NCBI GenBank assembly: GCA_024699715.1
Contig: JANPRD010000012.1
Location: 10,605 to 34,604, forward strand
Direction of reading: 5' to 3'
From: Candidatus Methanophagales archaeon
GTDB taxonomy: Archaea > Halobacteriota > Syntropharchaeia > Alkanophagales > Methanospirareceae
Length of the DNA stretch: 24,000 nt
A program made the position numbers and the translations under genes. Position 1 is the first letter of the stretch; every line of letters starts with the position of its first letter. Below, in pieces: positions 1,950 through 19,187 of the stretch. The notes under the pieces are model-generated. The model did no database searches. It saw nothing but the letters and a program-made list of their open reading frames with translations, and had not been told where the DNA came from.

Positions 1950-3001
1950 GAGCCATTTTGAATGCTCTTCTCCAAATTTTCCAAATCTTCAGGGCGGAAA
2001 ACGCCTTTTTCGGTGACGAAAGCGGAGACAAAGCGAAGGGGCGTGAAGTCAAACGCAGGATTCCTGACATCAACATTCAGAGGTGCAATCTGCTCTCTGC
2101 CTACAAAAATAAGTTCCTCTTTCCCTCTTTCCTCCACTTTCACATCCTTCTCGCTCCTACGAAGGTCAAAAGAAGAAAGAGGAGCAGCGACATAGAAAGG
2201 AATTGAATGCTCTTTTGCGATGACCGCATGCATGTAAGTGCCTATTTTGTTGAAAAAACCGTCTTTAACGACTCTATCCGCACCGACAAGAACGCAATCA
2301 ACGACACCATCTCGCATAAGTTTTGCGGATGCGCTGTCTGCGATGAGTGTTACAGGTATTCCATCCTTGAGAAGTTCCCAAGCGGTGAGCCTTGAGCCTT
2401 GGTTCAGCGGTCTCGTCTCGCATGCGAAGACATGAATGCGTTTCCCTTCCTTCAGCACAGCAGTGCGGATGATGCCGAGAGCAGTCCCCCAACCGACGCA
2501 TGCGAGCCTTCCTGCGTTGCAGTGCGTAAGCACAACATCTCCATCTTTGAGCAGCTTCGCACCGTTCTCGCCGATTTTCTTATTCACTTCTAAGTCCTCC
2601 GCAAGCATTTTCTTCGCTTCTTTCAACGCCTCCTCAAACATTTCTTCCGCAGTTCCGCCTCGCAACGCAGCAGAGAAAGCACGCTGAACGCCGTAAGAGA
2701 GATTTACCGCCGTCGGTCTCAAATTAGCAAGCTCAGCAACCGCCTTTTTCAACGCTTCCTGCGACTGCGAAGATGCTGCAATTTCCTTGCACGCAAGGAC
2801 AACGCCGAAAGCACCCGCTACCGCAAGAGCTGGCGCACCTCTCACTCGCATCTTAAGAATCGCTTCCTTCAACGCAGAAAGCGTCCTGCATTCAATCACC
2901 TTGAACTCACGAGGTAATAGCGTCTGGTCTATCATCTTAACGCATTCCGCCTCTTCATCCCACCAAATCGTCAGTTCTTCCTCGCACTGCTCCGTATTCA
3001 T
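1925..3001 (-). CDS. mtnA: Methylthioribose-1-phosphate isomerase / eIF-2B alpha-beta-delta family protein
   Basis: 358-aa ORF. The N-terminus WWDEE..VKMIDQTLLPREFKVIECRT..AILKMRVRGAPALAVAGAFG and C-terminus VLVGADRV..NKIGTY..A are typical of MtnA/aIF-2B-like isomerases. The 3' end overlaps the convergent gene by 25 nt. Confidence 0.85.
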   Translation of the reverse strand: MNTEQCEEELTIWWDEEAECVKMIDQTLLPREFKVIECRTLSALKEAILKMRVRGAPALAVAGAFGVVLACKEIAASSQSQEALKKAVAELANLRPTAVNLSYGVQRAFSAALRGGTAEEMFEEALKEAKKMLAEDLEVNKKIGENGAKLLKDGDVVLTHCNAGRLACVGWGTALGIIRTAVLKEGKRIHVFACETRPLNQGSRLTAWELLKDGIPVTLIADSASAKLMRDGVVDCVLVGADRVVKDGFFNKIGTYMHAVIAKEHSIPFYVAAPLSSFDLRRSEKDVKVEERGKEELIFVGREQIAPLNVDVRNPAFDFTPLRFVSAFVTEKGVFRPEDLENLEKSIQNGSQNGSISV

Positions 3002-3139
3002 TTTATAATGATGTGAATAAGAAGGAGAAAATAAAATAGGAGAGAAATCACAAATGCGAGGGAAAGATTGCGAGCAGACGAAAGCTTAAGCGTGGAAAGC
3101 ATCGTAATCAAATGAAGGGACAGGGGGGAGGGCGAAGAA

Positions 3140-6100
3140 ATGCAGATTGATGTTGATAAAGTTTTGGCGGGAATAAAGCAGGCTGCATTAACTGCAAGAA
3201 ATGAAGAAGAACTTCGGATAAGAGTATCAAGTATTATAGAGAATGAAGTTGTTTCAAAACTTGAAGATATTCCACTTGCGAAGTATGAATACACATTCAT
3301 TTCAGGCGGTAGAGCGGATGCTTTATATGGGCATCTCATTATAGAATACAAGGTTCCGGGCAAACTTTCAACAGAAAGAGATATTGCGAAGGCGAAAGAG
3401 CAGCTCATCGGATACATAAAAAAGGAGGCGGGATATGAAGGTAGGTTCAAGAAGTTCTTAGGTGTAATTATTTCAGATAAGATTGCTTTTGTCAGATATG
3501 ATGAGCATGCAAAAAATTGGGTTCTAAGAGGACCTTATGACATCAGCAGAGAGACTATAATCAGGTTAATAGAGGCTATAAGAGGTCTGAGGAGGAAAAA
3601 ACTTGCTGTTGATGAATTGCTTGAGGATTTCGGTCCCGAGAGCGGAGTTGCGAAGCGAGCAGTCAGAACTTTCTACATGAAAATTTTGAATTCAAGGAGC
3701 GAGAAGGTCAATGTGTTGTTTGAAGATTGGAAGCGTCTCTTCTCTCAGGTCTGCGCTTACAGTCCTGATAAACTCAAGGGGTTAGAAAAGGCGTATAATT
3801 TGGCAGATAAGGATGCGTTGCTTTTCGCAATTCACACGTATTATGCGTTGCTCATGAAGCTGCTTGCCGCAGAGATAACTTATCTCTTCGGAACGGGTAA
3901 GTGGCTGAAATCGTATGTTTTGGAGCTGGAAGATGCGCACATGCGAGGTTTAAGCGCATTAATGGAGGCATTAGAGGATTTGGAGAGTGGAGGGACATTC
4001 AGAAGAATACTCAATATCAAAAACTTCGTTGAGGGCGATTACTTCTCATGGTATCTTGATGAATTTGATGAAGATATTGCGGAAGTCATATCCGAAATTG
4101 CGAAGAAATTATCTGATTATGAGCCTGCAACGCCTGTTCTTGAGCCTGAATATGCGAAGGACATGCTCAAAAGGTTGTATCAACACTTAGTTCCGAGGAA
4201 GGTGAGGCATGATTTGGGCGAGTTTTACACGCCTGACTGGCTTGCTGAGCTTGTTTTGGATGAAGTGGGCTTCACAATTGAGCATTTTGAGGAGATTGCG
4301 AGGCAGAAAGAAGACCCAACCGCTCCTCTTCAGCTCAAACTACTTGACCCCGCATGCGGTTCAGGCACTTTTCTCGTTTCGGCGATTAAGAGATTGAAGG
4401 AGTATGCTGAAAAGCATTATTTGAAGGATGTTTTGGGCGATTATGTGCTCAAAAACATCGTTGGCTACGACCTGAACCCGCTTGCTGTGCTTGCGGCGAG
4501 AACGAATTACCTGCTCGCAATCCGCAGATGTGCTCAGTTACACAAGACATGTTGAGATTCCTGTTTACCTTGCGGATGCACTGCTCGTTGAGACGAACAC
4601 GACAATAACCGGAACCACATATGTCATCAGGACATCAGTCGGAAAGTTTGAGATACCGAAAGATGTCGTTGACAAAGGCACGCTCGGCGAACTGCTGTTC
4701 CACATTGAAGACAGAATTAAATACGATTACTCGCCACCACAATTCATTCAATATCTTAAAGAACGGGGTTTTAATGAGGATTTGCACTTGATTGAGAGCC
4801 TTTATGCCACCTTTTATGAACTTGAGAAGGCTAAAAAGAACAAAATATGGACTTCAATTATCAGAAATGCGTTCGCTCCGCTGCTGAAAGGTGAATTCGT
4901 ATATGTTATTGGGAATCCGCCGTGGATAAACTGGGAGAGTTTGCCTGAAGATTACAGGAAGAGGTCAAAGAGTTTGTGGGAACAATATGGACTGCTTAAG
5001 GGTAAAGGAAAGGGAATGGGAAGGGTCAAGAGGGAAATCGCAGCGCTTTTCGTCGCAAGGTCGCTTGACAAATATGTGAAGGAGGGCGGTAAATTGGCAT
5101 TCCTCGTCCCTTTCACGCTGTTTAAGACACAGGCAGGTGCGGGATTCAGGGAATTCATCGCTAAAGGTGCCAACGGGAAGAATAGAGGAGTCGCATGTAA
5201 AGTGCTTAAAATTCACGATTTGGTGACGCTTTACCCGTTTGAAGGTGCTGTTAACAGGACTGCGATGATTGTCGTTGCGAAAGAAAGAGAGGGAAAAACA
5301 GAATTTCCGATACCTTGCGTTGTCTGGTATAATCCGAGAAGTGGAGGAATAAGCACAGAACTGAAATTGAACGAGGTCAAGGCTATTACGAGAAGATTTG
5401 AAATTGCCTTTCTGCCTGTTGAGAGGGAGAAGTATGAAAGTCCATGGATGCAAATCACCGAAAAGGCTTACGAAGGCATTAAAAAAGTGCTGGGTGAAAG
5501 TGAATACAGGGCTTACGCAGGCGTTTACACAGGATTAAACCAAGTTTATTGGGTTGAGGTTTTGGAAGAAATGCCCGATGACTCGCTTTTAATCAGAAAT
5601 TCCGAGCTGGCAGGTCAGAAAAAGAAAGTGAAAACGGTTGAAGAAACTATTGAGAAGGAATTAGTTTACCCACTCGTGAGAGGAAGAAATGTGAAGAAAT
5701 GGTATGTTGAGAGAGATTTCAGATGGATTATTGTTCCGCACAACCCAGAAACGGGAAAACCTATTCCCGAAAACGAAATTAAATCAAAATATCCTAAAAC
5801 TTACAGTTATCTCTTTAAATTCAAGAAGGAATTGGAAGACCGCTCTATTCACAAGTTATGGGGTAAAGATAACCCTTTCTACGCCGTTTACGCCATCGGG
5901 AAATATTCCTTTTACCCTTACAGAGTTGTTTGGAAATACATTTCAGGGAAAATATCGGGAAAAGCTGATTTTTCAACAGCAGTAATTAAGCCGTTTAATG
6001 GGGACTCTGAAATGAAGACAGTTATTCCGAATGAGAAATTAATGTTAGTTCCTTTAAAGAGTGAGGATGAGGCTTATTATCTTTCTGCAGTTTTAAACTC

Positions 6101-6416
6101 ATCAGTGATTCGGTTATTCGTAGCATCTTATGTGATTGAGACAGAGATTTCAACGCATATACTCGGCAGGGTGAGAATTTCAAAATTTGACGCAAAAAAT
6201 GAAATTCACAGGGAGCTTGCAAGGCTTTCAAAGCGAGCGCATGAAATAGCGAGGGAAATTTACGAGGGGAATAGAGAAGACCTGAAAGCGGATTTGGCTG
6301 AAATAGAGGAGGAGATAGACGAGAAAGTTGCCGAGCTCTACGGAATCACGGGAGAGGAGTTGAGGGAAATAAAGAGATGCCTCAAGATTTTAGAGGAAGG
6401 TGTGGTAGAAGAGTAG
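3140..6416 (+). pseudogene. Type IIG restriction-modification enzyme (fused PD-(D/E)xK nuclease, gamma-class N6-adenine methyltransferase and target-recognition region), split by a +1 frameshift near 4523
   Basis: ORFs 3140..4555 and 4482..6416 overlap in different frames and join as ..ARTNYLLAI|ADVLSYTRHVEIPVYLADAL.. (about 1090 aa). Nuclease motif: D60..E69-x-K71 (RADALYGHLIIEYK, 3317-3352). SAM motif I: LLDPACGSGTF (about 4340-4372). Catalytic motif IV: NPPW (4914-4925). The region is AT-rich compared with its neighbours. Confidence 0.8.
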
Positions 6417-6547
6417 AAGAAAGGGGCGACAAAGGGGTGCGCTGGGAGAGATTCCAAAGAAGAGGTTTGAGTAGGCTTAAGTTAGTCGGATGTGCGGACA
6501 CGCACTAATCGGGAGAGAAAATTTATGTTTCAGCGTGTAAAATAAAT

Positions 6548-6826
6548 ATGCTTGACGAGTTAGAATCTTGGCTCCTCGTAGACGAAAATGCAATTTCAAA
6601 ACGCTTGGGGAAAAATGTGAGAGCAGTTCCGAATCCTGAAAGCATACACGACGCAAAGGAATATTTGGAGGAATTATTTGAAGAAGCGTGTGAGAAATAC
6701 TTGACGAAATTTGGAGGGGAGATTGCGAAGTATGTGGATGTGGAGAAATTGAAAGGTAAGTGTGCATCTTTTGCGGATTTTGAGGGGATGGTAAGGAATG
6801 GTAATGTCAGAAGAAGAGATGCATGA
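6548..6826 (+). pseudogene. 5'-truncated relic of a DUF4276/Toprim-like gene (C-terminal 88 residues only)
   Basis: The 92-aa ORF aligns with residues about 95-184 of ORF 18191..18745 (ELESWLL.DENAIS..NPESIHDAKEYLE..KCASFADFE.MVRNGNVRRRDA), about 78% identical by hand count. The N-terminal part carrying the acidic E and DxD motifs is missing. Confidence 0.7.
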
Positions 6827-7268
6827 GCAGCAGCAAGAGTGGGAGAAGAGCAGGAGGCGAGAGTCGCTGCTTGAGGAATTTTTGCGACCTTCGCATGTGT
6901 TTGCGGTAGTCGGTGCGACGCCGAAGCGAGAGAAATACGGCTACAAGATTTTCAAGAGCCTGAAGGAGGCGGGCTACAAGGTGTATGCGGTGAATCCGAA
7001 CCACGAGGAGATTGAGGGAGAGCGTTGCTACGCATCCTTGAGCGAGCTGCCTGAGAAGCCGGATGTCGTTGACATCGTTGTTCCTCCAGCGGTAACAGAG
7101 CAAATTGTGCGTGAGGCTCACCGCCTCGGCATCAAAAAAATATGGATGCAGCCCGGTGCGGAGAGCGAAGAAGCGATAAAATTCTGCGAAGAGCATGGAA
7201 TATCCGTCATTCACGGTCTCTGCGTCATGCTTGAATCCTTGCGTGCAGCGAGAAAGCGAGAGATATGA
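6798..7268 (+). CDS. CoA-binding domain protein (YccU/YneT-like, CoA_binding_2), copy 1
   Basis: 156 aa. HVFAVVGATPKREKYGYKIFKSLKEAGYKVYAVNPNHEEIEG..CY.SL.ELPEKPDVVDIVVPP is the typical pattern of this family. Confidence 0.85.
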   Translation: MVMSEEEMHEQQQEWEKSRRRESLLEEFLRPSHVFAVVGATPKREKYGYKIFKSLKEAGYKVYAVNPNHEEIEGERCYASLSELPEKPDVVDIVVPPAVTEQIVREAHRLGIKKIWMQPGAESEEAIKFCEEHGISVIHGLCVMLESLRAARKREI

Positions 7269-7292
7269 AAGGCAAAATTGCAACGAAAAGAA

Positions 7293-7565
7293 ATGCGAAA
7301 TGCAGTGGATGAGAAAGAAAAAATGGAAGCACGAGTGAAGAAGGACATCGCCCTTTTTGAGGAGAACTTTTCAAAGATTGAGCGGGTGAGAGCCCCTGAA
7401 GACGCAAAAACGATTGAACTTGCGAGGGCATACTGCGAAGATGCGAAGTTTTACCTTGAAAAAGGCGACTTATTCACCGCTTTCGGTTGCATTAACTACG
7501 CTCACGGTCTTTTAGACGCTGTGAGAATGCGTAAGGAATTCGCTGGTGAGAATAGAAGAGAGTAG
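7293..7565 (+). CDS. Small helical protein, DUF357-like, copy 1
   Basis: ORF 7278..7565 opens on TTG; the first ATG is at 7293. The motif AR.Y.EDAKFYLEKGDLFTAFGCINYAHGLLDA matches my recollection of archaeal DUF357 proteins. Confidence 0.6.
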   Translation: MRNAVDEKEKMEARVKKDIALFEENFSKIERVRAPEDAKTIELARAYCEDAKFYLEKGDLFTAFGCINYAHGLLDAVRMRKEFAGENRRE

Positions 7566-7588
7566 AGGAGCAGCGAGGAGATTAAAAG

Positions 7589-8597
7589 TTAAGAGCAGAG
7601 TGAGATGCCGAGAAGGAATCCGAGAATCGCCCCTGAGTTCAGGAACGGGAGACCTGCGTGGGGTTTTCCCCTGCCTGCGAAAGTGCAAAGGAGAGCGTAA
7701 CCCGCAAGCGTGCCTGCGACAGAACCGATGGCAGAAGCGAAGGATGCGTAGCGGTATGCGGAGACAGCGAGAATCGCAGGAATAATCGCATCGCCGAGAC
7801 CCATGAAAAATGCTTCTCCACCTCCTAACTCCTGCTGCTCCTTCCCGCTTTCCTGCCCCGCTTTCTCCGCTTTTTCCGCTCTTTCTGCTCTTCCTGCTCG
7901 CCCTTTTGCAGCAAGCAGAGAGAACTTGCGTCTGCGAGGCAAGACGAAAAGTAGGGGGACACGCATCTCCACAACGCTTGATGCGAGCGAGACCATGTGC
8001 TTCGTGCCGTAGACGGAGACAGCGTCGTAGACTGCGAGTATGACAAGTAGGACAATTACAGGTAGAACATTTCAGGGAGATGCCGAAAATTGATGCCACT
8101 CCAGAGGCAACAAGCAATCCAACAGCATCAATAATATACCACTCCGGACGAAAGTAGAGCAGAGCGGTGAGAGCAAGCGCTACAATCAAAGGAAATATTT
8201 GAAGCGATGGAACAAAAGCAACATGGAAAATATTGAGAATGATTGGGATAAGGGCGGAAAGCACCCAATATATTGTTGCAGCGACTGCAAATAGCATGAA
8301 AAGATGCACGAACTTCATGCCGCCGAATTTCAAAATCACGAGAATCGCAGCGGTGAAGCCGAGAACGAGGGCGAAGAAGAAGACTGCGTTAGATACGGAT
8401 TCTGGATTTTCAAACGCCTTCATTCCCGCAGTTTCAAACGGTGCTGCGAGAAGCAACGCAAATACATGCGTGAGAAGCAGGAGCAAGCCCATACCCGCAA
8501 ACGCAAAAACATTCCCACGAGATTCTTCCTCCATATCCTTACCTGAACTTTCCTCAAACGCTTGCATGCGCCTCACACGCCCTCTATTTTTGTCCAT
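7589..8597 (-). pseudogene. Presenilin/signal-peptide-peptidase homologue (A22 intramembrane aspartyl protease), copy 1, frameshifted upstream of the YD motif
   Basis: The N-terminal TM region in ORF 7512..8597 is sensible up to ..ASIFGISL and then turns into Arg/Cys-rich nonsense. The rest (..PVIVLLVILAVYDAVSVYGTKHMVSLASS..EAFFMGLGDAIIPAIL..GLPFLNSGAILGF) lies in the frame of ORF 7589..7996. Copy 2 reads GISLQVLPVIVLLVILAVYD without a break. Confidence 0.8.
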
Positions 8598-8639
8598 CGC
8601 CCGAAGGTGGTGCCCGCTCCCTCCGCCCGCTTCTACCGT

Positions 8640-9554
8640 TTAGATTTTGTTGAAGAAGTGTTTGAGGGTTTTTGCGAGTTCAACGCTGTCCGCCTCTGAA
8701 CGCATCAAAATCTTCGCCTTTAATATTTTGCAACTGCTACTGTGGCGGCATTCGTCCTGCTCGTCAATGACTAAAGCGTCAAGGAAATCCTCGTAGCACT
8801 TCAGAACGCCTTCCGCAGAGACTTCAAAGCCGCATGCTCGCATCAGTGCGGCAGCGGGACCGCTCACGGGTCTTCCACCAATAATTGGCGAGACAGCAAG
8901 CACTTTCTTCTCTTTCAAACGCTCTCTTACGCCTCTGAGGCTCAAAATCGGAGAAATGCTTGTTATCGGATTGCTCGGACCGATAAGCACGAAATCCTCC
9001 TCCTCAAGCAGCTCTTTAAATCTCTCAGAAGGCTGAACACGCTCAACGCCTTCAAATCTGACGCCTCGCACAGAAGGCTTTCCTCTCCGCAGGACCCAGA
9101 AATCCTGAAAGTGCATCTCTCCCTCATCCGTGAGGATTTTCGTTTTCACCGCAGCAGGCTCGTCTGTCATCGGAATGACCTCCGCAGAGATGCCGAAGCG
9201 AGAGGCGAGCATAGAAGTCGCTTCACTCAGCGTCAAACCCCTGCGAAGCATCTCAGAACGAAATATGTGCGTCGCCCTGTCCAAGTCTCCGATTTTCAAT
9301 TTCTCGTCGCATCCGAGCCTCAACAACGCCTCATGCGTTTTGAATGTGTCGTTTCGGATGCCCCACCATCTCTCCTCGTCAATCACGCCTGCGAGAGCGT
9401 AAATCACCGCATCTATGTCTGGGCAGACAAGATTTCCTGAAATCCAAACATCTTCAGCCGTATTTACAACAATCTTTAACTCGCTTTCGGGAAAAATCTT
9501 CTTCATTCCAACAAGCAATTTCGGCGTCCCCGTCCCTCCCGATAGAATTATCAT
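8640..9554 (-). CDS. cofD: 2-phospho-L-lactate transferase (F420 biosynthesis), copy 1
   Basis: 304 aa. MIILSGGTGTPKLL..VVNTAEDVW.SG..VCPD.D.V.YALAG is characteristic of CofD. The start overlaps the stop of the upstream GT4 gene by 4 nt (ATGA). Confidence 0.9.
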   Translation of the reverse strand: MIILSGGTGTPKLLVGMKKIFPESELKIVVNTAEDVWISGNLVCPDIDAVIYALAGVIDEERWWGIRNDTFKTHEALLRLGCDEKLKIGDLDRATHIFRSEMLRRGLTLSEATSMLASRFGISAEVIPMTDEPAAVKTKILTDEGEMHFQDFWVLRRGKPSVRGVRFEGVERVQPSERFKELLEEEDFVLIGPSNPITSISPILSLRGVRERLKEKKVLAVSPIIGGRPVSGPAAALMRACGFEVSAEGVLKCYEDFLDALVIDEQDECRHSSSCKILKAKILMRSEADSVELAKTLKHFFNKI

Positions 9555-10624
9555 CTCAACACACTCTCATAAACATCTAAAGTTTGCTCCGCAACCTTAT
9601 CCCATGTGAAATTCTTCGCCTTCTCTCTCGATAAGCGGCCCATTCGCTCCAAATCCTCCTTCAATATCTCCTCTATTGCCTCCTTTATCTCACGAGCGGA
9701 AGTCCCGCAGAGTATTCCGTTTCCTTGCACATAATATCTGTTGTCGCTCACATCAGACGCAATTATCGGCAGTCCTGATGCCATCGCCTCAAGTATTGTG
9801 ATTGGCTGTGCCTCAAGTTTTGACGGCAAAATGAAAATATCAATACTGCGGTAGAAGGAAGGGGCATCATCTACATATCCCAACACCCTTATCCTCTCAT
9901 TTTCCGCCTTTTTAAGTCGCTTTAACAGCGGACCCGTCCCCGCAATCTTTAAATTTATCCGCCTCCCCTCCAAAATCAGCTTCTTTACCGCTCTCACCAT
10001 GTTCAGCACATTCTTCTCGTGTGAGAGCCTGCCGAGGTAGCCGATGCATATCTCTCTTTCTTCACGACGACCCCCGCAGCAGCCTTCCTCCGCTCCTTCC
10101 TCCGCCGTCTCAAGTTCCCATCTCGGCTTGAATCTCTCAATATCAACGCCGTTCGGAATGACGACCGTCTCTGTCTCGTTGTTGCAATATCGCCGTATTT
10201 CCTCCGCAATCGTCCTCGCTACGGAAATAAATTTCTTTGAGCGTCCTGCGTAGAGAGATGCCAGCGTTCCTATCAAAACACGGGCAAGTTCCCCCTCAAA
10301 ACCCTCCCCTATTTGAATGTGGAATGTGTTGATGACGCTTATTTCGCTGCAAATAGACGAGAATGGCATGAGGAATTCAGAAAATGTCGCCGCATGATGA
10401 ATATGAAGGATGTCAAATCCCCCAATCTCTCGCCTTATTTTCTTCAGAGCGATGTCAAATCCGTATGAGATGCCGCCTTTGTGGTTCCCTACCATTAGGG
10501 AATCAAGCGAGAATTGGTTTATTTTCTTCACCTCGTGTCCCCTGCGTTCAAATTCTTTTGAGAGCGCTTCAACATGCGTTTTTATACCTCCATGCACATT
10601 TCGGTAGTAAAATGCAATTCGCAT
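9551..10624 (-). CDS. Glycosyltransferase family 4 (GT-B fold), copy 1
   Basis: ORF 9551..10672 opens on TTG. The likely start is the ATG at 10624 (MRIAFYYRNVHGGI..), which is shared with copy 2. The C-terminal PSKLEAQPITILEAMASGLPIIASDV is the E-x7-E motif of GT4 enzymes. Confidence 0.85.
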   Translation of the reverse strand: MRIAFYYRNVHGGIKTHVEALSKEFERRGHEVKKINQFSLDSLMVGNHKGGISYGFDIALKKIRREIGGFDILHIHHAATFSEFLMPFSSICSEISVINTFHIQIGEGFEGELARVLIGTLASLYAGRSKKFISVARTIAEEIRRYCNNETETVVIPNGVDIERFKPRWELETAEEGAEEGCCGGRREEREICIGYLGRLSHEKNVLNMVRAVKKLILEGRRINLKIAGTGPLLKRLKKAENERIRVLGYVDDAPSFYRSIDIFILPSKLEAQPITILEAMASGLPIIASDVSDNRYYVQGNGILCGTSAREIKEAIEEILKEDLERMGRLSREKAKNFTWDKVAEQTLDVYESVLR

Positions 10625-10743
10625 TGCACACTCCCACCTCACACACGCTCTCCTTGAATTCAAAACGCTCAACGCTTTTTAAAACTTGCGGGAGTAGAAG
10701 GGCAGAGAAGGGCAAAGAAGAGCAAAAGGTGAGCAAGGGGTAG

Positions 10744-12622
10744 ATGGATATGAGGACTTGGAGCAAGAACCGTGAATTTCTCGCCGTTTCCACGCTTACT
10801 CTCGCATTCTTCTGCCTCGCAGTATTCAATTTAGGCTCTCTCCACATTCCCGATTCATGCTGGCAACCCTCCGCTTTTGCGCATGCCGTCGGGCTTAAGT
10901 GGGACGAGAAGATTGAGGTAATTGTCGCTCTTAATAGCACGCTCAACAGCACGGAGAACGCCGAGAAACTTCACAAAAAACGCACTTAACGGCACTTCTA
11001 CAACACAAGTGGGAGCGATTTACATCTTTCTGAACGATGCGAACACGACAAAATTTGAAGTTTTCGGCAAAGGAGACGGCGTCCAATGGCGGAAACTCCA
11101 CACATACGACAACTCAAAGAGCGTTCATTTCTGCAATTGGGAGCGGATTGCGTTGAACACGAATGCATCCTTCTTGAAGTTCGTTTTTGAGCCTACAGAC
11201 GGGAAAGTAGGGGAGATATTTGTGATTTCGCCGAGAGGCGAGAAGATTAACGCAAGCGTTCGCTATTTCGGTGTCAGCAGCAGTCGCAAAAGCAATAGCA
11301 GAAACGGAAGCGGGGAGTGGAATTTGAGCGGAGTTGCGGACCCGAGAAGGCTTTTTGACGAGCAAGCGCTGGATGTGCCTCTGACGCAAGAGAGCGGTGC
11401 ATATTTTGACGAGATGTATTTTGTGCGAACCGCATGGGAACACATTCACTTCAAAGAGCCTTACGAGTGGACGCATCCCCCGCTCGCCAAGTTAATAATC
11501 GCTGCGGGCATTCTGCTCTTCGGAATGAACCCTTTTGGGTGGCGAATTTTCGGCGTTATTGCGGCGACTGCGATGATTCCTCTCGTATTCGTCCTTGCGA
11601 AGCGCATATTCAGGAGCTCTGCGGGGGCTTTCTTCGCATCCTTCCTGCTCACTTTTGACTTCATGCACTTCACCCTCGCAAGGCTTGCAACAGGCGAAAT
11701 CTTCATCATGCTCTTCTCACTCTTAATGTTCTTTTTCGCTGCATCTTTCATTTTCACCGACAGAGGCATGCGGATATTCAGAAGGAATAATAGTGATTTC
11801 TGCCTGTTCTTAAGCACTGTCTCTTTCGGTTTGTGCTTTGCAGTGAAATGGACAGCATTTTACGGCTTCATCTCTGTTATTGTTCTCGTGCTTCTCACGA
11901 ATTTTTTGCGTCGTGAGCAAATCTTGAATGGCTTCAGAGGTATTTTCGCAGGTTTGCTCGTCTCTTCCGCAATATATATCGCTTCTTACATACCTTATAT
12001 GCTTTGCGGTCATTCCCTCTTTGATGTTTTTCTGCTGCAATTCACGATGTTCGGCTACCACGCAGGCTTAAGAGCGACGCATCCTTTCGCATCGGCGTGG
12101 TGGTCCTGGCCTCTAATGCTGAAGCCGCTTTGGCTCTTCGTGAATCCGCTTGACAGCAAGGTCTCAACAGTGGTTCTGCTCGGAAATCCTGCGATTTGGT
12201 GGGGTGGTCTCGCAGCCATCGCTGCGATTTCTGTCTCTTTCGTTAAAACAAGAAGAGAAAGGAGAAGTGCAGATGCGGGTATTGGCGGGATTGAGTTTGA
12301 AGGGATTGAGTTTGAGGGGAACAAGCGGGAAGTAAAACTCTTCATTTTGCTCCCATTTTTCTTGCAGTGGCTCCCTTTTGCGGCGGTCACGAGAATCCTT
12401 TTCATTTACCACTTCGCCCCGAATGTGCTTTTCTTAGTTCTCGCCCTCGCTTACTGGCTTGACGCCCTCTGGCGAGATTCAACAGCGTCAAAAGGAATAG
12501 TCGTTGCGTTCCTCGTCCTTACAGCGTCGCTCTTCGTCCTTTTCTACCCCGTGATTTCAGGCTTTCCGATTGAAGAGGCATACAGAGAGAGCCTGAAGTG
12601 GCTTCCCAGCTGGATTTTCTGA
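10744..12622 (+). pseudogene. PMT/GT39-family dolichyl-phosphate-mannose protein mannosyltransferase with an N-terminal TM anchor and an extracytoplasmic beta-rich domain, copy 1, frameshifted near 10960
   Basis: ORF 10744..10989 (TM anchor, ..NSTLNSTENAEKLHKKRT*) and ORF 10922..12622 (..NFTKNALNGTSTTQVGAIYIF..DEMYFVRTAWEHIHFKEPYEWTHPPLAKL.., multi-TM) are in different frames. Copy 2 reads ..NSTENARNFTKNALNSTSTTQVGAIYIF.. in one frame. The copy offset changes from 11932 to 11931 across this site. Confidence 0.8.
12287..12316. repeat. 2 x 15-bp tandem repeat (gggattgagtttgaR) encoding GIEFEGIEFEG in a PMT loop
   Basis: Seen directly in the sequence and in the translation ..GIGGIEFEGIEFEGNKRE.. 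Confidence 0.8.
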
Positions 12623-12728
12623 GAGAGAGCGAGGGTTGCGTGATGTCGTCTCACTGTCTCACTTTGTCCCCATTTCATTCGCACCTTAAATCTTATAGTG
12701 GGGGTTATGCATGCTAAATGCAATAGTA

Positions 12729-12738
12729 TTTATATAAA
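12729..12738 (+). promoter_or_regulatory. Candidate archaeal TATA box (tttatataaa) for the 12773 gene
   Basis: Near-consensus TTTATATA sits about 35 nt upstream of the ATG at 12773. A purine-rich aggagggtgaggggg stretch (SD-like) lies between them. Confidence 0.4.
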
Positions 12739-12772
12739 GAATGTGGAATAAGGAGGGTGAGGGGGTGGTAGT

Positions 12773-13057
12773 ATGGCGAAGATAAGTATAGAGGCGGATT
12801 CGTTGGAGGAGGTTCGGGAGATATTGAGGGAGAAGCCGAGATTTCCGGAGGGTTTAGTCCCGCTGGTGCAGGACATAGAGCGGGTGCTTGAGGCGGTTGA
12901 GCGTGCGAAGTCAGAAGACCCGAGGGGGCGTGCGAAGCGTAAGATAGCGGAATATGCTGGTATTAGGGATGCTGCAAAGGTCGGCGAGATTCTGCGTTTG
13001 CTTGAGCGACACCGCATCGTTCAGCGAGAATCCAGAGGCAGATGGAAAACGATTTGA
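12773..13057 (+). CDS. Small putative winged-helix DNA-binding protein (94 aa)
   Basis: The ORF has an ATG start, a TATA box and an SD-like element. The C-terminal IAEYAGIRDAAKVGEILRLLERHRIVQRESRGRW looks like helix-turn-helix plus wing. I recognise no family. Confidence 0.55.
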   Translation: MAKISIEADSLEEVREILREKPRFPEGLVPLVQDIERVLEAVERAKSEDPRGRAKRKIAEYAGIRDAAKVGEILRLLERHRIVQRESRGRWKTI

Positions 13058-13065
13058 GCGCCGCT

Positions 13066-13113
13066 CTCTTTTATTTTTTCCAATTTTTCCGTTTCCAATT
13101 TTTCCGATTTTTT
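13066..13113 (+). terminator. Oligo-T terminator region containing a 15-bp-period direct repeat (ttccaatttttccg x2)
   Basis: T-runs sit directly after the stop at 13057 (cttttatttttt, then T5, T5, T6). Repeat units are at 13078-13091 and 13093-13106. Archaeal termination typically uses oligo-T tracts. Confidence 0.4.
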
Positions 13114-13130
13114 GCTCGCAGAAGCGAAGG

Positions 13131-13139
13131 TTTATTTTT
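13131..13139 (+). promoter_or_regulatory. Candidate TATA-like box (tttattttt) for the 13169 gene
   Basis: An A/T box lies 30 nt upstream of the ATG at 13169. Confidence 0.3.
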
Positions 13140-13168
13140 GAGGGGTGTGAATAAAAGAAGAGGATAGA

Positions 13169-13744
13169 ATGGCGGAGGAAGAAGGAGGATTCTTTGCGAT
13201 TGAAAACGACGATGTGGCGACGCAGGCGCAGATTAAAAAGATTTATGCCCTTTTACATCGGCTCGGAAAGGACCCGCAGAAATTCAAGGAGGAAAGAGGT
13301 TTCACGAACTACGCAAAACTGACGAAGAGGCAGGCATCAGAGCTTATTGACGAGCTTGAGCGGGAGGAGTTCAGAAAAATAGAGGAGGAAGTGAAGGCAA
13401 AAGCGGAACAAACCTCTGTGGTAGAAACGCAGCAGGCACCGTCCCAACCGATACAACAGATACAACAGACACAACAGGCACAACAGGCACAACAGACCAC
13501 GAATGCAAGGGAGAGCGTGGCACAGGAAGCAGTTGAGCTTCGGCGAGAAGCGTTGGTAAAGGAGGCGGAGGAGGTTGCTCGTGCTGCGAGATTAATGCGT
13601 AGGTGCGTGAGCGAGGCGAAGCGGATTGTGGAGGAGGAGATGCCTTTCGTCGTGAGCGAGGCGATAAAGGCAAAAACTATCGGCTCAATCGCCGCAACTC
13701 TATTCATTCAACTTGAAAGCAGGAGCTATCGGTGGGAAGAGTAA
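13169..13744 (+). CDS. Hypothetical protein (191 aa) with an N-terminal ATQAQIKKIYALL..LTKRQASELIDEL module, a Q-rich repeat and a charged helical C-terminus
   Basis: The ORF has an ATG start. The N-terminal module resembles small DUF3072-type domains (assignment from memory, low certainty). The central IQQIQQTQQAQQAQQ is encoded by the 9-bp repeat. Confidence 0.55.
   Translation: MAEEEGGFFAIENDDVATQAQIKKIYALLHRLGKDPQKFKEERGFTNYAKLTKRQASELIDELEREEFRKIEEEVKAKAEQTSVVETQQAPSQPIQQIQQTQQAQQAQQTTNARESVAQEAVELRREALVKEAEEVARAARLMRRCVSEAKRIVEEEMPFVVSEAIKAKTIGSIAATLFIQLESRSYRWEE
13451..13495. repeat. 5 x 9-bp imperfect tandem repeat (RyAcaacag) encoding (I/T/A)QQ
   Basis: Units atacaacag, atacaacag, acacaacag, gcacaacag, gcacaacag read directly from the sequence. 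Confidence 0.85.
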
Positions 13745-13892
13745 GCGAAGCGAGGTAGGCGTATAGGGTAGTTGCAGAGGAAAGGATATGGCTGTCTATA
13801 AAGAGACAGACACTAATGCATTTGAAAAGAGATAAAGCGCTGTGAGATAGAAGAGCGGAATGGGCTTTTTAGGGCGAATAAATTATTCGCAC

Positions 13893-15272
13893 TTACGAAA
13901 CAATTTGCATTTTCGCCACCAGAATCGTCGGAGAGGCAATATTGTAAATCTGTCTGCTGTCTTTTGCGACGATTTCAACACGCTTCAGCATCTCAACCGA
14001 GTTTCCTACAAGCATAACCTCACGCAGCGGCTTCAATTCACCTCTTTTCACTGAAAATGCGTTTTGAGCGACAACAGAAAATGCGCCTGATGTTGCGTCT
14101 GCGGTGTGCGCACCAATCACATCGCTCACAAGTATGCCCTCGTTCAACTCACGCAAAATTTCTTCACGAGTGGCATCGCCTCGCTCAATGATGAAGTTCG
14201 TTGCTCCCACTGAAGGTGGCTGGTCGTAGCCCCTGACTGCGTTTCCCGTGCTTTCAACACCGTCCTTTGATGCGGTGTATGTGTCGTATAGGAAATTTTT
14301 GAGGATGCCCCGCTCAATAAGCACCGTTCTTTGCGAAGGAACGCCCTCTCCATCCATTTTTCTCGTGTTCAAGCGACCTTCTGCAGTGCCGTCGTCAACA
14401 ATTGTGAGCATTTCAGATGCAATTTCTTCGCCCAACCGACCTTTGTAAGGTGAGCGGTTCCGCTGCACATTCTCCGCACTGAAATGTCTGACGGTTGTGT
14501 AAGCGAGTATGCTCTGCACCGCTCTCGGCGAGAGAACAACAGGCATTTCCTTCGTCTCCGCTTTCTGACCACCGAGGCTCCTCAACGCAAGCAGTGTTGC
14601 CTCCTCAGAAATCCAACGCAAATTCAAATCGCTCAAACGCCTTTTTGCCTCCCCTTCGCTGCCTGCGATTTCCTCTGCAGAACCTCCCTCTGCTGTTTTG
14701 CTGCGTGCAACGACAGTTATGCCTGCGGATGCGAAAGTCCCGCTGTCCTCCGCAGAAACGCCTTCTGAGTTCAAAATGAAAATATGGTCGTAAGCAACGG
14801 AGAAGCCGCCTTCAGTAGGCTCGCAGGAGACGCCTCCCCCTCCGCTTCCGCTCTCATCCTCGCAAGCTCCTCTGACGCCTTCAAGCAGTTCAGACGCAAT
14901 ATCTAAAGCATCTTCAGGCGAATTGCAGAGCTCAACGATGCGTTTGTCGTAAGCACCTGCGGTTCGGTAGCGTTCTGGTGAAACTGCGGGAAGCCCGCAG
15001 AACTCCTCATCCGCTTCAGACGCCTTCGCCCTCCTTACCGCCTCTTCAACGCACCTGCGCAACGCATCATCGCTCAAGTCAGTCGTGTAAGAGAAGCCAA
15101 CTTTATTTGCGACGACCGCTCTGATGCCAACACCCCTGCTCCTGAATCTTTTCACTTGCTTCACGCTCCAACGCTCAAAATCTATGCTTAATCCTTCCGC
15201 ATGCTCACCGTAGATCTCAACCTGCTCGCAAGAATCTGCAAAACGCAGCGCCCTCTCCAAAATCTCGTGCAT
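13893..15272 (-). CDS. TldD/PmbA family protein (peptidase U62-type)
   Basis: 459 aa. The N-terminus ..VEIYGEHAEGLSIDFERWSVKQVKRFRSRGVGIRAVVANKVGFSYT.. and C-terminus ..GILVSDVIGAHTADATSGAFSVVAQNAFSVKRGEL are typical of the family. A GGAGG SD sits just upstream. I saw no HExxxGH motif, so it is more PmbA/TldE-like. Confidence 0.85.
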   Translation of the reverse strand: MHEILERALRFADSCEQVEIYGEHAEGLSIDFERWSVKQVKRFRSRGVGIRAVVANKVGFSYTTDLSDDALRRCVEEAVRRAKASEADEEFCGLPAVSPERYRTAGAYDKRIVELCNSPEDALDIASELLEGVRGACEDESGSGGGGVSCEPTEGGFSVAYDHIFILNSEGVSAEDSGTFASAGITVVARSKTAEGGSAEEIAGSEGEAKRRLSDLNLRWISEEATLLALRSLGGQKAETKEMPVVLSPRAVQSILAYTTVRHFSAENVQRNRSPYKGRLGEEIASEMLTIVDDGTAEGRLNTRKMDGEGVPSQRTVLIERGILKNFLYDTYTASKDGVESTGNAVRGYDQPPSVGATNFIIERGDATREEILRELNEGILVSDVIGAHTADATSGAFSVVAQNAFSVKRGELKPLREVMLVGNSVEMLKRVEIVAKDSRQIYNIASPTILVAKMQIVS

Positions 15273-15353
15273 TTCCTCCAGCGAAGAAAATGAGAAGAAA
15301 AGAGGAGAAAAAGAGAAGCAAGGAGCAAAGGAGGAATAGGAGCGAATAGCCGC

Positions 15354-17015
15354 TCACATTCCGCCTACGCCTGGATACCCGCCTCCTTCTGGCATGCCTC
15401 CCTCCCCTGGTGCAGGAGGCTTGAACTCCTCACGCTTTGAAGCGATCACATCGTCTATGCGAAGAATCATCGTTGCTGCTTCCACTGCGGATGAGACCGC
15501 CTGCTTCTTCGTTCTCAAGGGTTCAATCACGCCTCGCTCCCACATGTCCACGATTTCTCCCGTGTAGACATCCAAACCAGCGTTCTTATTTCCTGCTTCG
15601 TGAGCTGCCTTCAACTCAACCAACTTGTCAATGGGGTCAAGTCCTGAATTCTCCGCAAGCGTTCTCGGAATGATTTCAAGCGCCTCGGCAAACTTCTCTA
15701 CTGCGAGCTGCTCCCTCCCCTTCAGCGTCGTGCTGAATTCTTTGAGGCGTAGTGCGAGCTCTGTCTCAACTGCGGCGCCGCCTGCAACCGCCTTACCGTC
15801 CTCAAGAATGGATGAAGCCACCTTTAAAGCGTCGTTAAGCGAGCGCTCAATCTCGTCAACGACATGCTCCTCTCCGCCACGAACGACAATTGAAATTGAG
15901 CGTGGGTTCTCACATTCTTCAACGAAAACCATGCGGTCGCCTGCAATTTTCCGCTCACGAACGAGACCTGCATGACCCAACTCAGCTTCGCTCAACTCTT
16001 CAATGTTGTTCACGATTTTACCGCCTGTCGCCCTCGCAAGTCGCTCCATGTCGCTCTTTTTCACCCTGCGAACCGCAAGAATGCCCTCTTTTGCGAGGTA
16101 ATGCTGCACAACATCGTCTATTCCCTTCTGACAGAATACGACATTCGCACCACTCGCCTTTATTTTCTCTACCATTTTACGCATCATTCGCTCCTCTTCG
16201 TCCAAGAATGCCTTCATCTGCTCCGCTGAACGAATGCGAATCTCAGCATCCGTCTCCGTCTTCTTGACCTCTAAAGAGCAGTTAAGCAGCGCAATCTTCG
16301 CATTCTCAACCCTCTTCGGCATCCCTGGGTGAACAACTTCCTTGTCAATTGCGACGCCGTTCACAAGAATCGTGTCTGCGATTTTACCACCCGTCTTCTT
16401 TTCAATGTTCAAGTTGTCAAGGTCAACGGAGAAGCCACCATCCGTTTTTTCAGCGATGCTCTTCACAGCAGATACGGCGATGTCTGCGAGGAAGTCCCCT
16501 GCTGCTTCCGCAAATTTCCCAGTGATTGAAGTCTTCGCAACCTTACGCATCACATCCTCACGCACGCTCTCTTCACTGACATCCACAGCGACGCCATCAA
16601 GTATTTCTTTCGCCTTCTCAGCAGCCATCCGGTAGCCTGAGGCAATCACCGTCGGATGCAATTCCTGCTCAAGCAGTTCTTCAGCCTTCTTAAGCAGTTC
16701 GCCTGCGAGAACAACCGCTGTCGTCGTGCCGTCACCAGCTTCTTCGTCCATCGTTTTCGCAACCTCCACCATCATTTTCGCCGCTGGATGCTCTATGTCC
16801 ATCTCCTTCAGAATCGTGACGCCGTCGTTCGTTACGACAACATCGCCGAGCGTGTCAACGAGCATCTTGTCCATCCCTTTCGGTCCGAGCGTCGTCCTCA
16901 CCGCAGATGCGACCGCCTTCGCCGCATTTATGTTGTTCGCCTGCGCATCCCTGCCTCTCGTCCTTGATGTGCCTTCCCTCAAAATAAGCACAGGAATTCC
17001 TCCCATTCCAGCCAT
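15354..17015 (-). CDS. ths: Thermosome subunit (group II chaperonin)
   Basis: 553 aa. [43 protein letters not shown] and [15 protein letters not shown] match the family, as does the Gly/Met-rich tail ..[15 protein letters not shown]. Confidence 0.95.
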
Positions 17016-17098
17016 TTTCTCACCCCCGCTTCTCTCGCTCTCTTCTCTTGCTACCCCCTTTTAACTTTCCCTCTGCCACCCATACATTTCTCCTTCTA

Positions 17099-17108
17099 CT
17101 TATAATTT
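17099..17108 (+). promoter_or_regulatory. A/T-rich TATA-like element (ttataattta) in the thermosome/ATPase divergent intergenic region
   Basis: This is the only strong A/T box between 17016 and 17114. It lies only about 7-16 nt from the TTG start at 17115, so either the true start or TSS is further downstream or this box serves another purpose. Confidence 0.25.
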
Positions 17109-17114
17109 AAGCGT

Positions 17115-18745: not shown

Positions 18746-19187
18746 GCAGCAGCAAGAGTGGGAGAAGAGTAGGAGGCGAGAATCACTGCTTGAGGAATTT
18801 TTGCGACCTTCGCATGTGTTTGCGGTAGTCGGTGCGACGCCGAAGCGAGAGAAATACGGCTACAAGATTTTCAAGAGCCTGAAGGAGGCGGGCTACAAGG
18901 TGTATGCGGTGAATCCGAACCACGAGGAGATTGAGGGTGAGCGTTGCTACGCATCCTTGAGCGAGCTGCCTGAGAAGCCGGATGTCGTTGACATCGTTGT
19001 TCCTCCAGCGGTAACAGAGCAAATTGTGCGTGAGGCTCACCGCCTCGGCATCAAAAGAATATGGATGCAGCCCGGTGCGGAGAGCGAAGAAGCGATAAAA
19101 TTCTGCGAAGAGCATGGAATATCTGTCATTCACGGTCTCTGCGTCATGCTTGAATCCTTGCGTGCAGCGAGAAAGCGAGAGATATGA
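18717..19187 (+). CDS. CoA-binding domain protein, copy 2
   Basis: 156 aa, differing from copy 1 at one residue (GIKKIW versus GIKRIW). Confidence 0.85.
   Translation: MVMSEEEMHEQQQEWEKSRRRESLLEEFLRPSHVFAVVGATPKREKYGYKIFKSLKEAGYKVYAVNPNHEEIEGERCYASLSELPEKPDVVDIVVPPAVTEQIVREAHRLGIKRIWMQPGAESEEAIKFCEEHGISVIHGLCVMLESLRAARKREI

What the first reader, a model, noticed from the sequence alone, without database searches (positions are those of the whole stretch)
3140..6826. Different accessory cassettes at the same site of the two block copies: type IIG RM plus a diverged DUF4276 relic versus the intact ATPase-DUF4276 operon
The cassette immediately upstream of the CoA-binding gene differs between the two copies.

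- **Copy 2:** it has the complete ATPase plus DUF4276 pair.
- **Copy 1:** it keeps only the last 88 codons or so of a DUF4276 gene (6548-6826), with the acidic E and DxD motifs gone. This relic is preceded by an unrelated AT-rich 3.3-kb RM gene.
- **Divergence step:** the relic is only about 78% identical in protein to the intact gene, whereas everything from about 6760 onward is about 98-99% identical. Relaxed selection on one recent duplicate is unlikely to produce such a sharp step. More likely the two loci carried different alleles of the system, and the 5' part of one was replaced by the RM gene.
- **Why the relic survives:** in both copies the DUF4276 3' end overlaps the annotated CoA-binding start by 29 nt. 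That overlap may explain why the relic has been retained.

Together this looks like a defence-gene turnover hotspot.
Basis: partly seen in the sequence, partly recalled or inferred. Interest (0 to 1): 0.68.

Follow-up and report, generated by a model that had tools for sequence, protein, structure and literature searches.

The report
Defence-gene remnant made by a deletion
In a methane-oxidising archaeon (probably ANME-1c), a candidate two-gene defence system was reduced to a short remnant by a 1.36-kb deletion beside a newly gained restriction enzyme gene; this is an ordinary case of defence-gene gain and loss, and the "second copy" in the window may be an assembly artefact.

Summary
The sequence observations hold: a 5.5-kb repeated block, a 92-codon DUF4276 remnant, an identity step (about 85% to 98%) near 6760, and 29-nt overlaps.

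The RM gene did not replace the 5' part.
- Two independent contigs carry RM followed by an intact ATPase-DUF4276 pair.
- The remnant's ATG and upstream DNA are the ATPase gene's own. A 1,361-nt deletion fused them to DUF4276 codon 95.
- The same junction and an identical remnant occur in four other assemblies.

The identity step is a population-wide boundary. DUF4276 is hypervariable and the CoA-binding gene is conserved. Intact genes carry the remnant's allele class, and dS is 0.35 against 0.05-0.11 in block genes.

- The window's RM gene is frameshifted (+C at 4522).
- Copy 2's ATPase lacks its native start codon.
- Copy 2 begins at the same nucleotide where copy 1's deletion begins.

Copy 2's left junction is unique to this window. 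The duplication is therefore either one insertional event or two strain alleles joined during scaffolding. This is unresolved.

The parts
2981..6540 (+). RM cassette: present in some strains and absent in others. It replaces the 67-nt intergenic spacer and the first ~7 codons of the IF-2B-family (MtnA-like) gene found in RM-less loci.
   Evidence: Homology to RM-less loci (L005, L006) stops at window 2980 and resumes within ~10 nt of the ATPase ATG. GC is 42.6%.
3140..4555 (+). Type IIG RM gene, N-terminal ORF (endonuclease plus the start of the methyltransferase), ended prematurely by a frameshift.
   Evidence: PADLOC REase_MTase_IIG PDLC03630 positions 8-471 of 1100, E=2.7e-154. Pfam N6_Mtase.
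4522..4522 (+). Extra C (AATCGC to AATCCGC) that frameshifts the RM gene.
   Evidence: It is the only indel against the intact 1091-aa RM genes of L010 and L011.
4482..6416 (+). Type IIG RM gene, C-terminal ORF (rest of the methyltransferase plus the specificity domain), in another frame.
   Evidence: PDLC03630 positions 471-1099 of 1100, E=1.6e-191. Pfam Eco57I.
6548..6826 (+). Relic ORF (92 codons): ATPase start codon and codon 2 fused to DUF4276 codons 95-184. It has no Toprim E or DxD residues.
   Evidence: An identical 279-nt ORF occurs in L010-L013.
6554..6555 (+). Junction J1, ATGCTTG(A)CGAG: the deletion joint, with 1 nt of microhomology.
   Evidence: Compared with the native ATPase start in 12 contigs and with the L109 DUF4276 allele.
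6555..6759 (+). Divergent segment of the relic, carrying a 'class B' DUF4276 allele.
   Evidence: 83% identical to copy 2 but 94% to the intact genes of L005 and L008. dS 0.35.
6798..7268 (+). CoA-binding gene, copy 1. Its start overlaps the relic stop by 29 nt.
   Evidence: Pfam CoA_binding_2, E=3.3e-40. Coordinates.
6555..17109 (+). Segment b' (10,555 nt): DUF4276 3' part through to the thermosome upstream region. It lies between the ATPase gene's first 7 nt and the rest of that gene.
   Evidence: Junction mapping. The thermosome-PmbA adjacency and the native continuation beyond 17109 are seen in L014 and L015.
17109..17110 (+). Junction J2, TATAATTTA|AGCGTTTGG: thermosome upstream region joined to nt 8 of the ATPase ORF. 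Seen only in this window.
   Evidence: The 22-mer spanning it is absent from JGI metagenome contigs. None of 12 contigs with the ATPase 5' end has it.
17110..18194 (+). ABC (AAA_21) ATPase, HEC-01A-like, lacking its native ATG and 5' region. The first possible start is TTG 17115.
   Evidence: Pfam AAA_21, 2e-32. PADLOC HEC-01A, 7.9e-62. Start analysis.
18191..18745 (+). Intact DUF4276 (Toprim-like, HEC-01B-like) gene with E9 and D60-x-D62. It overlaps the ATPase stop by 4 nt.
   Evidence: Pfam DUF4276, 1.7e-14. PADLOC HEC-01B, 6.4e-13. Sequence.
17110..18470 (+). Segment a (1,361 nt): exactly the DNA that is missing from copy 1.
18471..24000 (+). Block copy 2 (DUF4276 3' part, CoA-binding, DUF357, SPP, CofD, GT4, PMT), cut off by the window end.

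Best explanation
This is one polymorphic locus of a recombining archaeal population, probably the ANME-1c species Candidatus Methanospirare jalkutatii. It is seen here in two allelic states.

The ancestral and commonest state is: IF-2B-family gene | 67-nt spacer | ABC-ATPase - DUF4276 (Toprim) - CoA-binding - DUF357. The three upstream ORFs overlap, so they look like one operon.

Step 1 (shown by comparison). A 3.56-kb cassette carrying a type IIG restriction-modification gene entered upstream of the ATPase ATG. It probably arrived by homologous recombination in the flanks, because it also swaps the first ~7 codons of the IF-2B-family gene.

Step 2 (shown). In an RM-carrying lineage with a 'class B' DUF4276 allele, 1,361 nt were lost, with 1 nt of microhomology at the joint. 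The loss joins nt 7/8 of the ATPase ORF to DUF4276 codon 95. The result is a 92-codon ORF that keeps the ATPase promoter and ATG, reads in the DUF4276 frame, and ends at the native stop overlapping the CoA-binding start. It has no Toprim catalytic residues, so the ATPase-Toprim system is dead in this allele.

Step 3 (shown, unless it is a sequencing error). In the window the RM gene is itself inactivated by a +1 frameshift.

The identity step at about 6760 is the population-wide boundary between the hypervariable ATPase/DUF4276 genes and the conserved CoA-binding gene.

The relic most likely persists because the RM-relic haplotype is young (inferred). Preserved translation into the CoA-binding start may add to this (inferred).

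Whether the second block copy lies in the same genome is unresolved; see the rival explanations.
For: - **RM with intact pair:** L001 and L101 carry RM followed directly by an intact ATPase-DUF4276 pair.
- **RM-less state:** ten contigs have the IF-2B-family gene directly upstream of the pair.
- **Relic start:** the relic ORF starts with the ATPase ATG and upstream DNA.
- **Junction J1:** ATGCTTG(A)CGAG matches the L109-type allele CACGAGTTAGAA.
- **Independent confirmation:** the same junction and an identical 279-nt ORF occur in four assemblies from four samples.
- **RM intact elsewhere:** L010 and L011 have a single 1091-aa RM ORF. The window differs from them by one extra C.
- **Allele classes:** the relic segment is 94% identical to L005 and L008 but 79-83% to class A alleles.
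- **Divergence:** dS is 0.35 against 0.05-0.11 in block genes, with dN/dS 0.37.
- **Population diversity:** pi is 0.07-0.18 in DUF4276 and 0.003-0.03 in the CoA-binding gene.
- **Young haplotype:** the window and L010 are at least 99% identical over about 3900-6900, while their flanks are 90-97% identical.
- **Relic-private changes:** only two, both nonsynonymous, at sites invariant in 25-26 intact alleles.
- **Family assignments:**
- **Literature:** DUF4276 is assigned to the Toprim superfamily in PMC12065111. HEC-01 is described in bioRxiv 10.1101/2024.01.29.577857.
Against: - The direct parent (RM + intact pair with a class B DUF4276 allele) was not found. L001 is class A in the relic segment; L101's allele class was not measured.
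- All comparison sequences are metagenome contigs and may themselves be strain mosaics.
- The single-base frameshifts may be assembly errors rather than mutations.
- Operon structure, promoter use and translational coupling are inferred from ORF overlaps only.
- No defence activity is known for this system. The one published HEC-01 test was negative.
Confidence: 0.85

Rival explanations
1. The two-copy structure is an assembly artefact. Copy 1 (RM-relic...thermosome) and copy 2 (ATPase-DUF4276-CoA...) are alternative alleles of one locus from two co-occurring strains, joined end to end during long-read scaffolding. Copy 2 starts where the alleles diverge, which explains why its left edge coincides with the deletion breakpoint.
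For: - J2 occurs only in the window. The 22-mer spanning it is absent from JGI contigs, including the sample that holds J1 (L010) and a thermosome contig running on into unrelated DNA (L014).
- None of 12 ATPase 5' ends lies next to the thermosome gene.
- The two copies differ as much as different strains do, and they carry exactly the two allelic states seen at one locus.
- The window's source appears to be the masked species representative, because one search found no hit above 71%.
- The type genome of the likely species is short-read contigs scaffolded by LRScaf with Nanopore reads from MDA-amplified DNA (PMC9894754).
- LRScaf merges contigs without Ns when the estimated gap is negative (PMC6902338).
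Against: - The junction is clean to the nucleotide, with no k-mer remnant of the upstream sequence and no Ns.
- PMT is broken only in copy 1, as might be expected for a redundant copy.
- That the window comes from that particular genome is inferred, not shown.
Confidence: 0.5
2. The duplication is real and arose in one event. A 10,555-nt copy of the segment from mid-DUF4276 to the thermosome upstream region, taken from a class B strain or sister chromosome, was inserted between nt 7 and 8 of the ATPase ORF, for example by templated break repair. This made J1 and J2 together. Later recombination between the two direct repeats would yield the simple RM-relic genomes seen elsewhere.
For: - J1's left breakpoint and J2's right breakpoint coincide within 1 nt, with no bases lost or gained.
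- There is no native ATPase start anywhere in the window.
- PMT is frameshifted only in copy 1.
Against: - J1 is found without J2 in other samples.
- 10.5-kb direct repeats should be unstable, yet the copies are about 3% diverged.
- SPP shows a frame switch in both copies.
- The right end of copy 2 lies outside the window.
Confidence: 0.4
3. One reading: the RM gene replaced the ATPase and the 5' half of DUF4276 in one locus.
For: In the window the RM gene lies directly upstream of the relic.
Against: - RM and the intact pair coexist in L001 and L101.
- The RM cassette ends before the ATPase ATG, and the relic still carries that ATG.
Confidence: 0.04
4. The relic's divergence is decay under relaxed selection after a recent duplication.
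For: There are two relic-private nonsynonymous changes at otherwise invariant sites.
Against: - dS in the segment is 3-7 times that of the block genes, and dN/dS is 0.37.
- Nearly all of the 'divergent' positions are shared with intact class B genes.
Confidence: 0.03

Closest known systems
HEC-01 (PADLOC candidate system: ABC ATPase HEC-01A plus TOPRIM/DUF4276 protein HEC-01B; Payne et al., bioRxiv 10.1101/2024.01.29.577857)
   Same: Both genes hit the HEC-01A and HEC-01B profiles (7.9e-62 and 6.4e-13). They are adjacent, in the same order and overlapping. E and DxD residues are present in the DUF4276 protein.
   Different: It is not embedded in an Hma system. Here it sits in an apparent operon with core genes (CoA-binding, DUF357) and is near-universal at that site in one archaeal species. 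HEC-01 itself gave no phage protection when tested.
PARIS (AriA/AriB), OLD nucleases and Gabija: ABC ATPase plus Toprim nuclease defence systems (PMC11464382)
   Same: Same general architecture of an AAA_15/21 ABC ATPase with a Toprim-type partner. DUF4276 is listed among such partners.
   Different: The AriA profile scores much lower than HEC-01A (6.3e-32). The partner is DUF4276, not DUF4435 or Toprim_Old. These are two separate small genes, not a fusion.
MADS (methylation-associated defence system) MAD3/MAD4
   Same: They are the best NCBIfam hits, and DUF4276 is called a MAD4 homologue in PMC12065111.
   Different: Scores are far below the curated cut-offs (129.8 against 420 bits; 31.1 against 160 bits). 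No other MADS genes are adjacent.
Type IIG restriction-modification enzymes (single-chain endonuclease-methyltransferase-specificity proteins, Eco57I/MmeI-like)
   Same: End-to-end coverage of PADLOC REase_MTase_IIG PDLC03630, plus Pfam N6_Mtase and Eco57I and sub-threshold MmeI_Mtase and TaqI_C matches. It is a single 1091-aa ORF in L010 and L011.
   Different: It is frameshifted in this window. The recognition site and activity are unknown.
Defence islands and variable hotspots flanked by conserved core genes
   Same: Presence/absence polymorphism of an RM gene, loss of a neighbouring system, and elevated diversity confined between conserved flanks.
   Different: The scale is very small (two systems). 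No integrase or mobile-element genes were identified among the ORFs scanned. One system is resident rather than sporadic.

Membership tests
HEC-01 (PADLOC candidate) | ABC-type ATPase matching the HEC-01A profile over its full length | tested here: met
   PDLC04182, E=7.9e-62, protein residues 2-356 against profile 8-401 of 406.
HEC-01 (PADLOC candidate) | Adjacent TOPRIM/DUF4276 protein matching the HEC-01B profile | tested here: met
   PDLC04194, E=6.4e-13. Pfam DUF4276, E=1.7e-14. The gene overlaps the ATPase stop by 4 nt.
HEC-01 (PADLOC candidate) | Both genes intact and expressible in this window | tested here: not met
   Copy 1 has only a catalytic-residue-less relic. Copy 2's ATPase lacks its native ATG and 5' region.
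HEC-01 (PADLOC candidate) | Anti-phage activity | not testable with these tools
   The published heterologous test of HEC-01 detected no defence.
Toprim superfamily (for DUF4276) | Conserved Glu after strand 1 and a DxD motif after strand 3 | tested here: met
   E9 (VVED) and D60-A-D62 (LGDAD) are present in the intact protein and absent from the relic. The family assignment comes from PMC12065111.
Toprim superfamily (for DUF4276) | Three-layer alpha/beta fold with a four-stranded sheet | tested here: inconclusive
   The single-sequence AlphaFold model has pLDDT 50. Its strand-helix alternation over residues 3-93 is compatible but not reliable. No PDB sequence match was found.
Type IIG restriction-modification enzyme | Endonuclease, gamma-class N6-adenine methyltransferase and specificity domain in one polypeptide | tested here: not met
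   All profile regions are present, but they are split over two frames by +C at 4522. The feature is met in L010 and L011, which have a single 1091-aa ORF.
MADS (MAD3/MAD4) | Scores above the NCBIfam equivalog cut-offs | tested here: not met
   129.8 against 420 bits, and 31.1 against 160 bits.
PARIS (AriA/AriB) | AriB-type DUF4435 Toprim partner | tested here: not met
   The partner is DUF4276, with no DUF4435 hit. AriA is only a secondary hit.
Segmental duplication within one genome | Novel junction confirmed independently of this assembly | tested here: not met
   J2 is absent from JGI contigs and from all 12 contigs that carry the ATPase 5' end. L014 and L015 continue into different DNA at 17109.

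The most novel reading that the evidence does not exclude
The break between nt 7 and 8 of the ATPase ORF is a real, reused or single-event breakpoint. One possibility is that a double-strand break there, conceivably made by the adjacent type IIG enzyme on its own chromosome, was repaired by copying 10.5 kb from a sister or foreign chromosome. That would simultaneously kill the ATPase-Toprim system and duplicate a block of core genes. Collapse of the repeats would then leave the RM-relic haplotype that is now spreading through the population. A second unusual point would hold as well: a HEC-01-type ATPase-Toprim pair that is species-wide, hypervariable, and translationally linked to core metabolic genes.
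Probability: 0.12. Interest if true: 0.55.

Novelty: new member of a known kind. Interest (0 to 1): 0.3.

Why it matters
It gives a nucleotide-resolved example of how defence genes are gained and lost in an uncultured methane-oxidising archaeon. A restriction gene arrives by flank recombination. A neighbouring ATPase-Toprim system is then removed by a short microhomology deletion, and the new haplotype moves between strain backgrounds.

It also shows that a sharp identity step next to a 'relic' can simply mark the edge of a hypervariable gene. Finally, it flags a likely problem in the source assembly: two alleles of one locus may have been placed in series.

None of this changes current understanding of defence systems.

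Tried and rejected
- **J2 in other assemblies:** the exact 22-mer search of JGI metagenome contigs found nothing. Exact-protein look-ups of copy 2's ATPase and DUF4276, and of PmbA and the 191-aa ORF, found nothing on record. The right-hand extension of copy 2 and the native link from PMT to PmbA therefore could not be checked.
- **Genome-level synteny:** the single genome-contig scan did not return the window's own genome. The nearest species (Ca. Methanoxibalbensis ujae, 71% aa) shares no neighbouring genes.
- **Origin of the two block copies from similarity:** the population is a mosaic. Neither copy has a consistent nearest relative.
- **'Copy 1 is decaying' as proof of a real duplication:** only PMT supports this. 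SPP has frame switches in both copies, in a region that is indel-rich across the population.
- **Structure-based Toprim test:** the single-sequence model was too poor (pLDDT 50) to search with. A PDB sequence search gave only noise.
- **Phase variation as the cause of the RM frameshift:** rejected, because the site is C to CC and not a long homopolymer.
- **Large protein-database searches:** not spent, because the family assignments were already clear from the profile libraries and the literature.
Full report
**WHAT IS IN THE WINDOW**

The genes are archaeal: thermosome, DUF2119, CofD, an MtnA/IF-2B-family isomerase, PmbA/TldD, a GT4 glycosyltransferase and a PMT-type mannosyltransferase.

A direct repeat joins 6552-12069 to 18468-24000 at 96.6% identity. 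The window end cuts it off.

- Upstream of copy 2 lie an AAA_21 ABC ATPase (17115-18194) and a DUF4276 gene (18191-18745).
- Upstream of copy 1 lie a type IIG RM gene and a 92-codon ORF (6548-6826) that matches only the C-terminal half of DUF4276.
- Both DUF4276 reading frames overlap the longest CoA-binding ORF by 29 nt.

**CHECKING THE OBSERVATION**

The identity step is real. Identity is 83-88% over 6552-6750 and 95-100% from about 6760. Beyond the step the block averages about 97%, and it has other divergent patches, for example 11229-11328 at 86%.

The relic aligns to residues 95-184 of the intact protein. It lacks E9 and D60-x-D62, the Toprim-type acidic residues.

Two details were missed:
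- The RM 'gene' is two ORFs in different frames. Compared with intact 1091-aa versions in two other assemblies, the window has a single extra C at 4522.
- Copy 2's ATPase has no native start. All 12 related contigs that reach the ATPase 5' end begin ATGCTT[G/A]AGCG. The window has no such motif. Its homology begins at nt 8 of the ORF, just after an in-frame TAA.

**RELATED SEQUENCES**

Exact-protein look-ups and one metagenome scan recovered about 35 contigs at 90-99% nucleotide identity. The nearest named species is the ANME-1c archaeon Ca. Methanoxibalbensis ujae, at only 71% aa and with no shared neighbours. L005 belongs to an assembly in the same accession series. The population is therefore probably the sister genus Ca. 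Methanospirare (PMC9894754). This identification is inferred.

The site between the IF-2B-family gene and the CoA-binding gene has three states:

| State | Arrangement | Seen in |
|---|---|---|
| 0 | 67-nt spacer, then ATPase-DUF4276 | 10 contigs |
| 1 | RM, then intact ATPase-DUF4276 | L001, L101 |
| 2 | RM, then relic | window, L010-L013 |

**HOW THE RELIC AROSE**

- In L001 the RM 3' flank runs into ...AAATAAATATGCTTGA|GCGTTTGGAAG, which is the ATPase start.
- In the window and in L010-L013 the same flank reads ...AAATAAATATGCTTGA|CGAGTTAGAATCTTGG, which is mid-DUF4276.
- L109's intact allele reads CACGAGTTAGAATCTTGG. The joint is therefore ATGCTTG(A)CGAG, with one shared A.

So 1,361 nt are missing, equivalent to window 17110-18470. 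The ATPase ATG now heads an ORF in the DUF4276 frame. The RM gene did not replace anything at this joint. Its cassette (about 2981-6540) ends upstream of the ATG.

**WHY THERE IS AN IDENTITY STEP**

In the 210-nt divergent segment the population has two allele classes:
- Class B: the relic, plus the intact genes of L005 and L008. The relic is 94% identical to each, and the two intact genes are 97% identical to each other.
- Class A: copy 2, L001, L002, L003, L006 and L007.

Identity between the classes is 79-89%.

Synonymous divergence between the relic segment and copy 2 is 0.35, against 0.05-0.11 for CoA, DUF357, CofD, GT4 and PMT. dN/dS is 0.37.

Nucleotide diversity across all contigs is 0.07-0.18 in DUF4276 and up to 0.21 in one ATPase segment. 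It falls to 0.003-0.03 in the CoA-binding gene.

The step is therefore the edge of a hypervariable gene pair. It is not a property of this duplication.

**AGE AND SELECTION**

The relic ORF is identical at every nucleotide in five assemblies. The window and L010 are at least 99% identical over about 3900-6900, while their flanks are 90-97% identical. The RM-relic haplotype is therefore young and sits on different backgrounds.

The relic has only two private changes, A11V and G48C. Both are nonsynonymous and lie at sites invariant in 25-26 intact alleles. This fits loss of constraint, but the numbers are too small to test.

Youth is a sufficient reason for the relic's survival. Preservation of translation into the overlapping CoA-binding start is possible but untested.

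**THE SECOND COPY**

Copy 2's left junction (J2) reads ...CTTATAATTTA|AGCGTTTGG. In two independent assemblies the thermosome flank continues ...CTTATAATTTA|CGCATCAG instead.

J2's right breakpoint (ATPase nt 8) coincides, within 1 nt, with J1's left breakpoint. The window therefore reads x - b' - a - b:
- b' = 6555-17109, lying exactly between nt 7 and 8 of the ATPase ORF;
- a = 17110-18470.

Two readings fit this.

1. **One real insertional duplication.**
2. **Two strain alleles joined during scaffolding,** with the second allele starting where the alleles diverge.

Evidence for reading 2:
- J2 is found nowhere else, including a sample that has J1.
- The copies differ as much as strains do.
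- The window's source behaves like the masked species representative.
- The type genome of the likely species was scaffolded with LRScaf using Nanopore reads from MDA-amplified DNA. LRScaf merges contigs without Ns when the estimated gap is negative.

Evidence for reading 1:
- The joint is clean to the nucleotide.
- PMT is broken only in copy 1.

I cannot decide between them. Read mapping would settle it.

**COMPARISON WITH KNOWN SYSTEMS**

- **ATPase-DUF4276 pair:** it matches PADLOC's HEC-01A and HEC-01B profiles. HEC-01 is an ABC ATPase plus TOPRIM candidate that showed no defence in its only published test.
- **DUF4276:** it is assigned to the Toprim superfamily and is listed among the partners of AAA15/21 ATPases alongside PARIS and OLD systems.
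- **MADS:** MAD3 and MAD4 are the best NCBIfam hits, but they score far below the cut-offs.
- **RM gene:** it is a standard single-chain type IIG enzyme.

**VERDICT**

'Different alleles' and 'polymorphic defence site' are supported. 'Replacement by the RM gene' is not.

What is there is an ordinary sequence of defence-gene gain, deletion and inactivation at one locus of a recombining archaeal population. The duplication is of doubtful authenticity.

Noticed in passing
window 10744-12622 (frameshift near 10963): Copy 1's PMT-type mannosyltransferase gene is split by an extra G at about 10963. Copy 2, L005 and L010 are intact there. This could be a real pseudogene or an assembly indel.
   Followed up: partly
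window 7512-8597 and 19431-20528: The SPP (signal-peptide peptidase) gene shows a frame switch in both copies relative to four reference proteins, at about 8069 and about 19800. Its 3' half is rich in 9-nt indels, and its called length varies from 321 to 365 aa across contigs.
   Followed up: partly
window 17410-17530: A short internal segment of the ATPase is the most variable stretch in the population (pi 0.15-0.21). It may be a specificity-determining insert.
   Followed up: no
window 2981-3001: The RM cassette brings a different first ~7 codons for the IF-2B-family (MtnA-like) gene. This suggests entry by recombination inside flanking genes rather than by a mobile element.
   Followed up: partly
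L001 beyond 4710 (equivalent to window about 8525 / 20456): In L001 the genes after SPP are different (SSO2105_N, an ABC ATPase, His_biosynth, CobN) instead of CofD-GT4-PMT. A second rearrangement breakpoint therefore exists in the population.
   Followed up: no
window 1-1136, minus strand (breakpoint about 675-701): The homologue of a 922-aa LTD/NosD/beta-helix/SNase protein of L005 lacks about residues 157-640. The break is at a GGTGTCGGGCTT tandem repeat and stays in frame. L107 has a similar short form.
   Followed up: partly
L098, L102, L105, L112, L113 (DUF4276 genes): Several population DUF4276 genes give split translated hits, which suggests frameshifts or indels. The gene may often be inactivated in other strains too.
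   Followed up: no
window 11229-11328: This patch inside PMT is only 86% identical between the two copies. In the surrounding 500-nt window (11260-11759) L010 matches copy 2 (98.4%) rather than copy 1 (94.4%), another sign of mosaic recombination.
   Followed up: partly
L005 and L010 contig ends (equivalent to window 11817 and 11997): Two independent contigs both end inside PMT within 200 nt of each other. This hints at a repeat or strain-variable boundary just beyond.
   Followed up: no
window 17098-17109: CTTATAATTTA, at the edge of the thermosome upstream region, looks like an archaeal TATA element. It now lies 6 nt from the first possible start codon of copy 2's ATPase.
   Followed up: no
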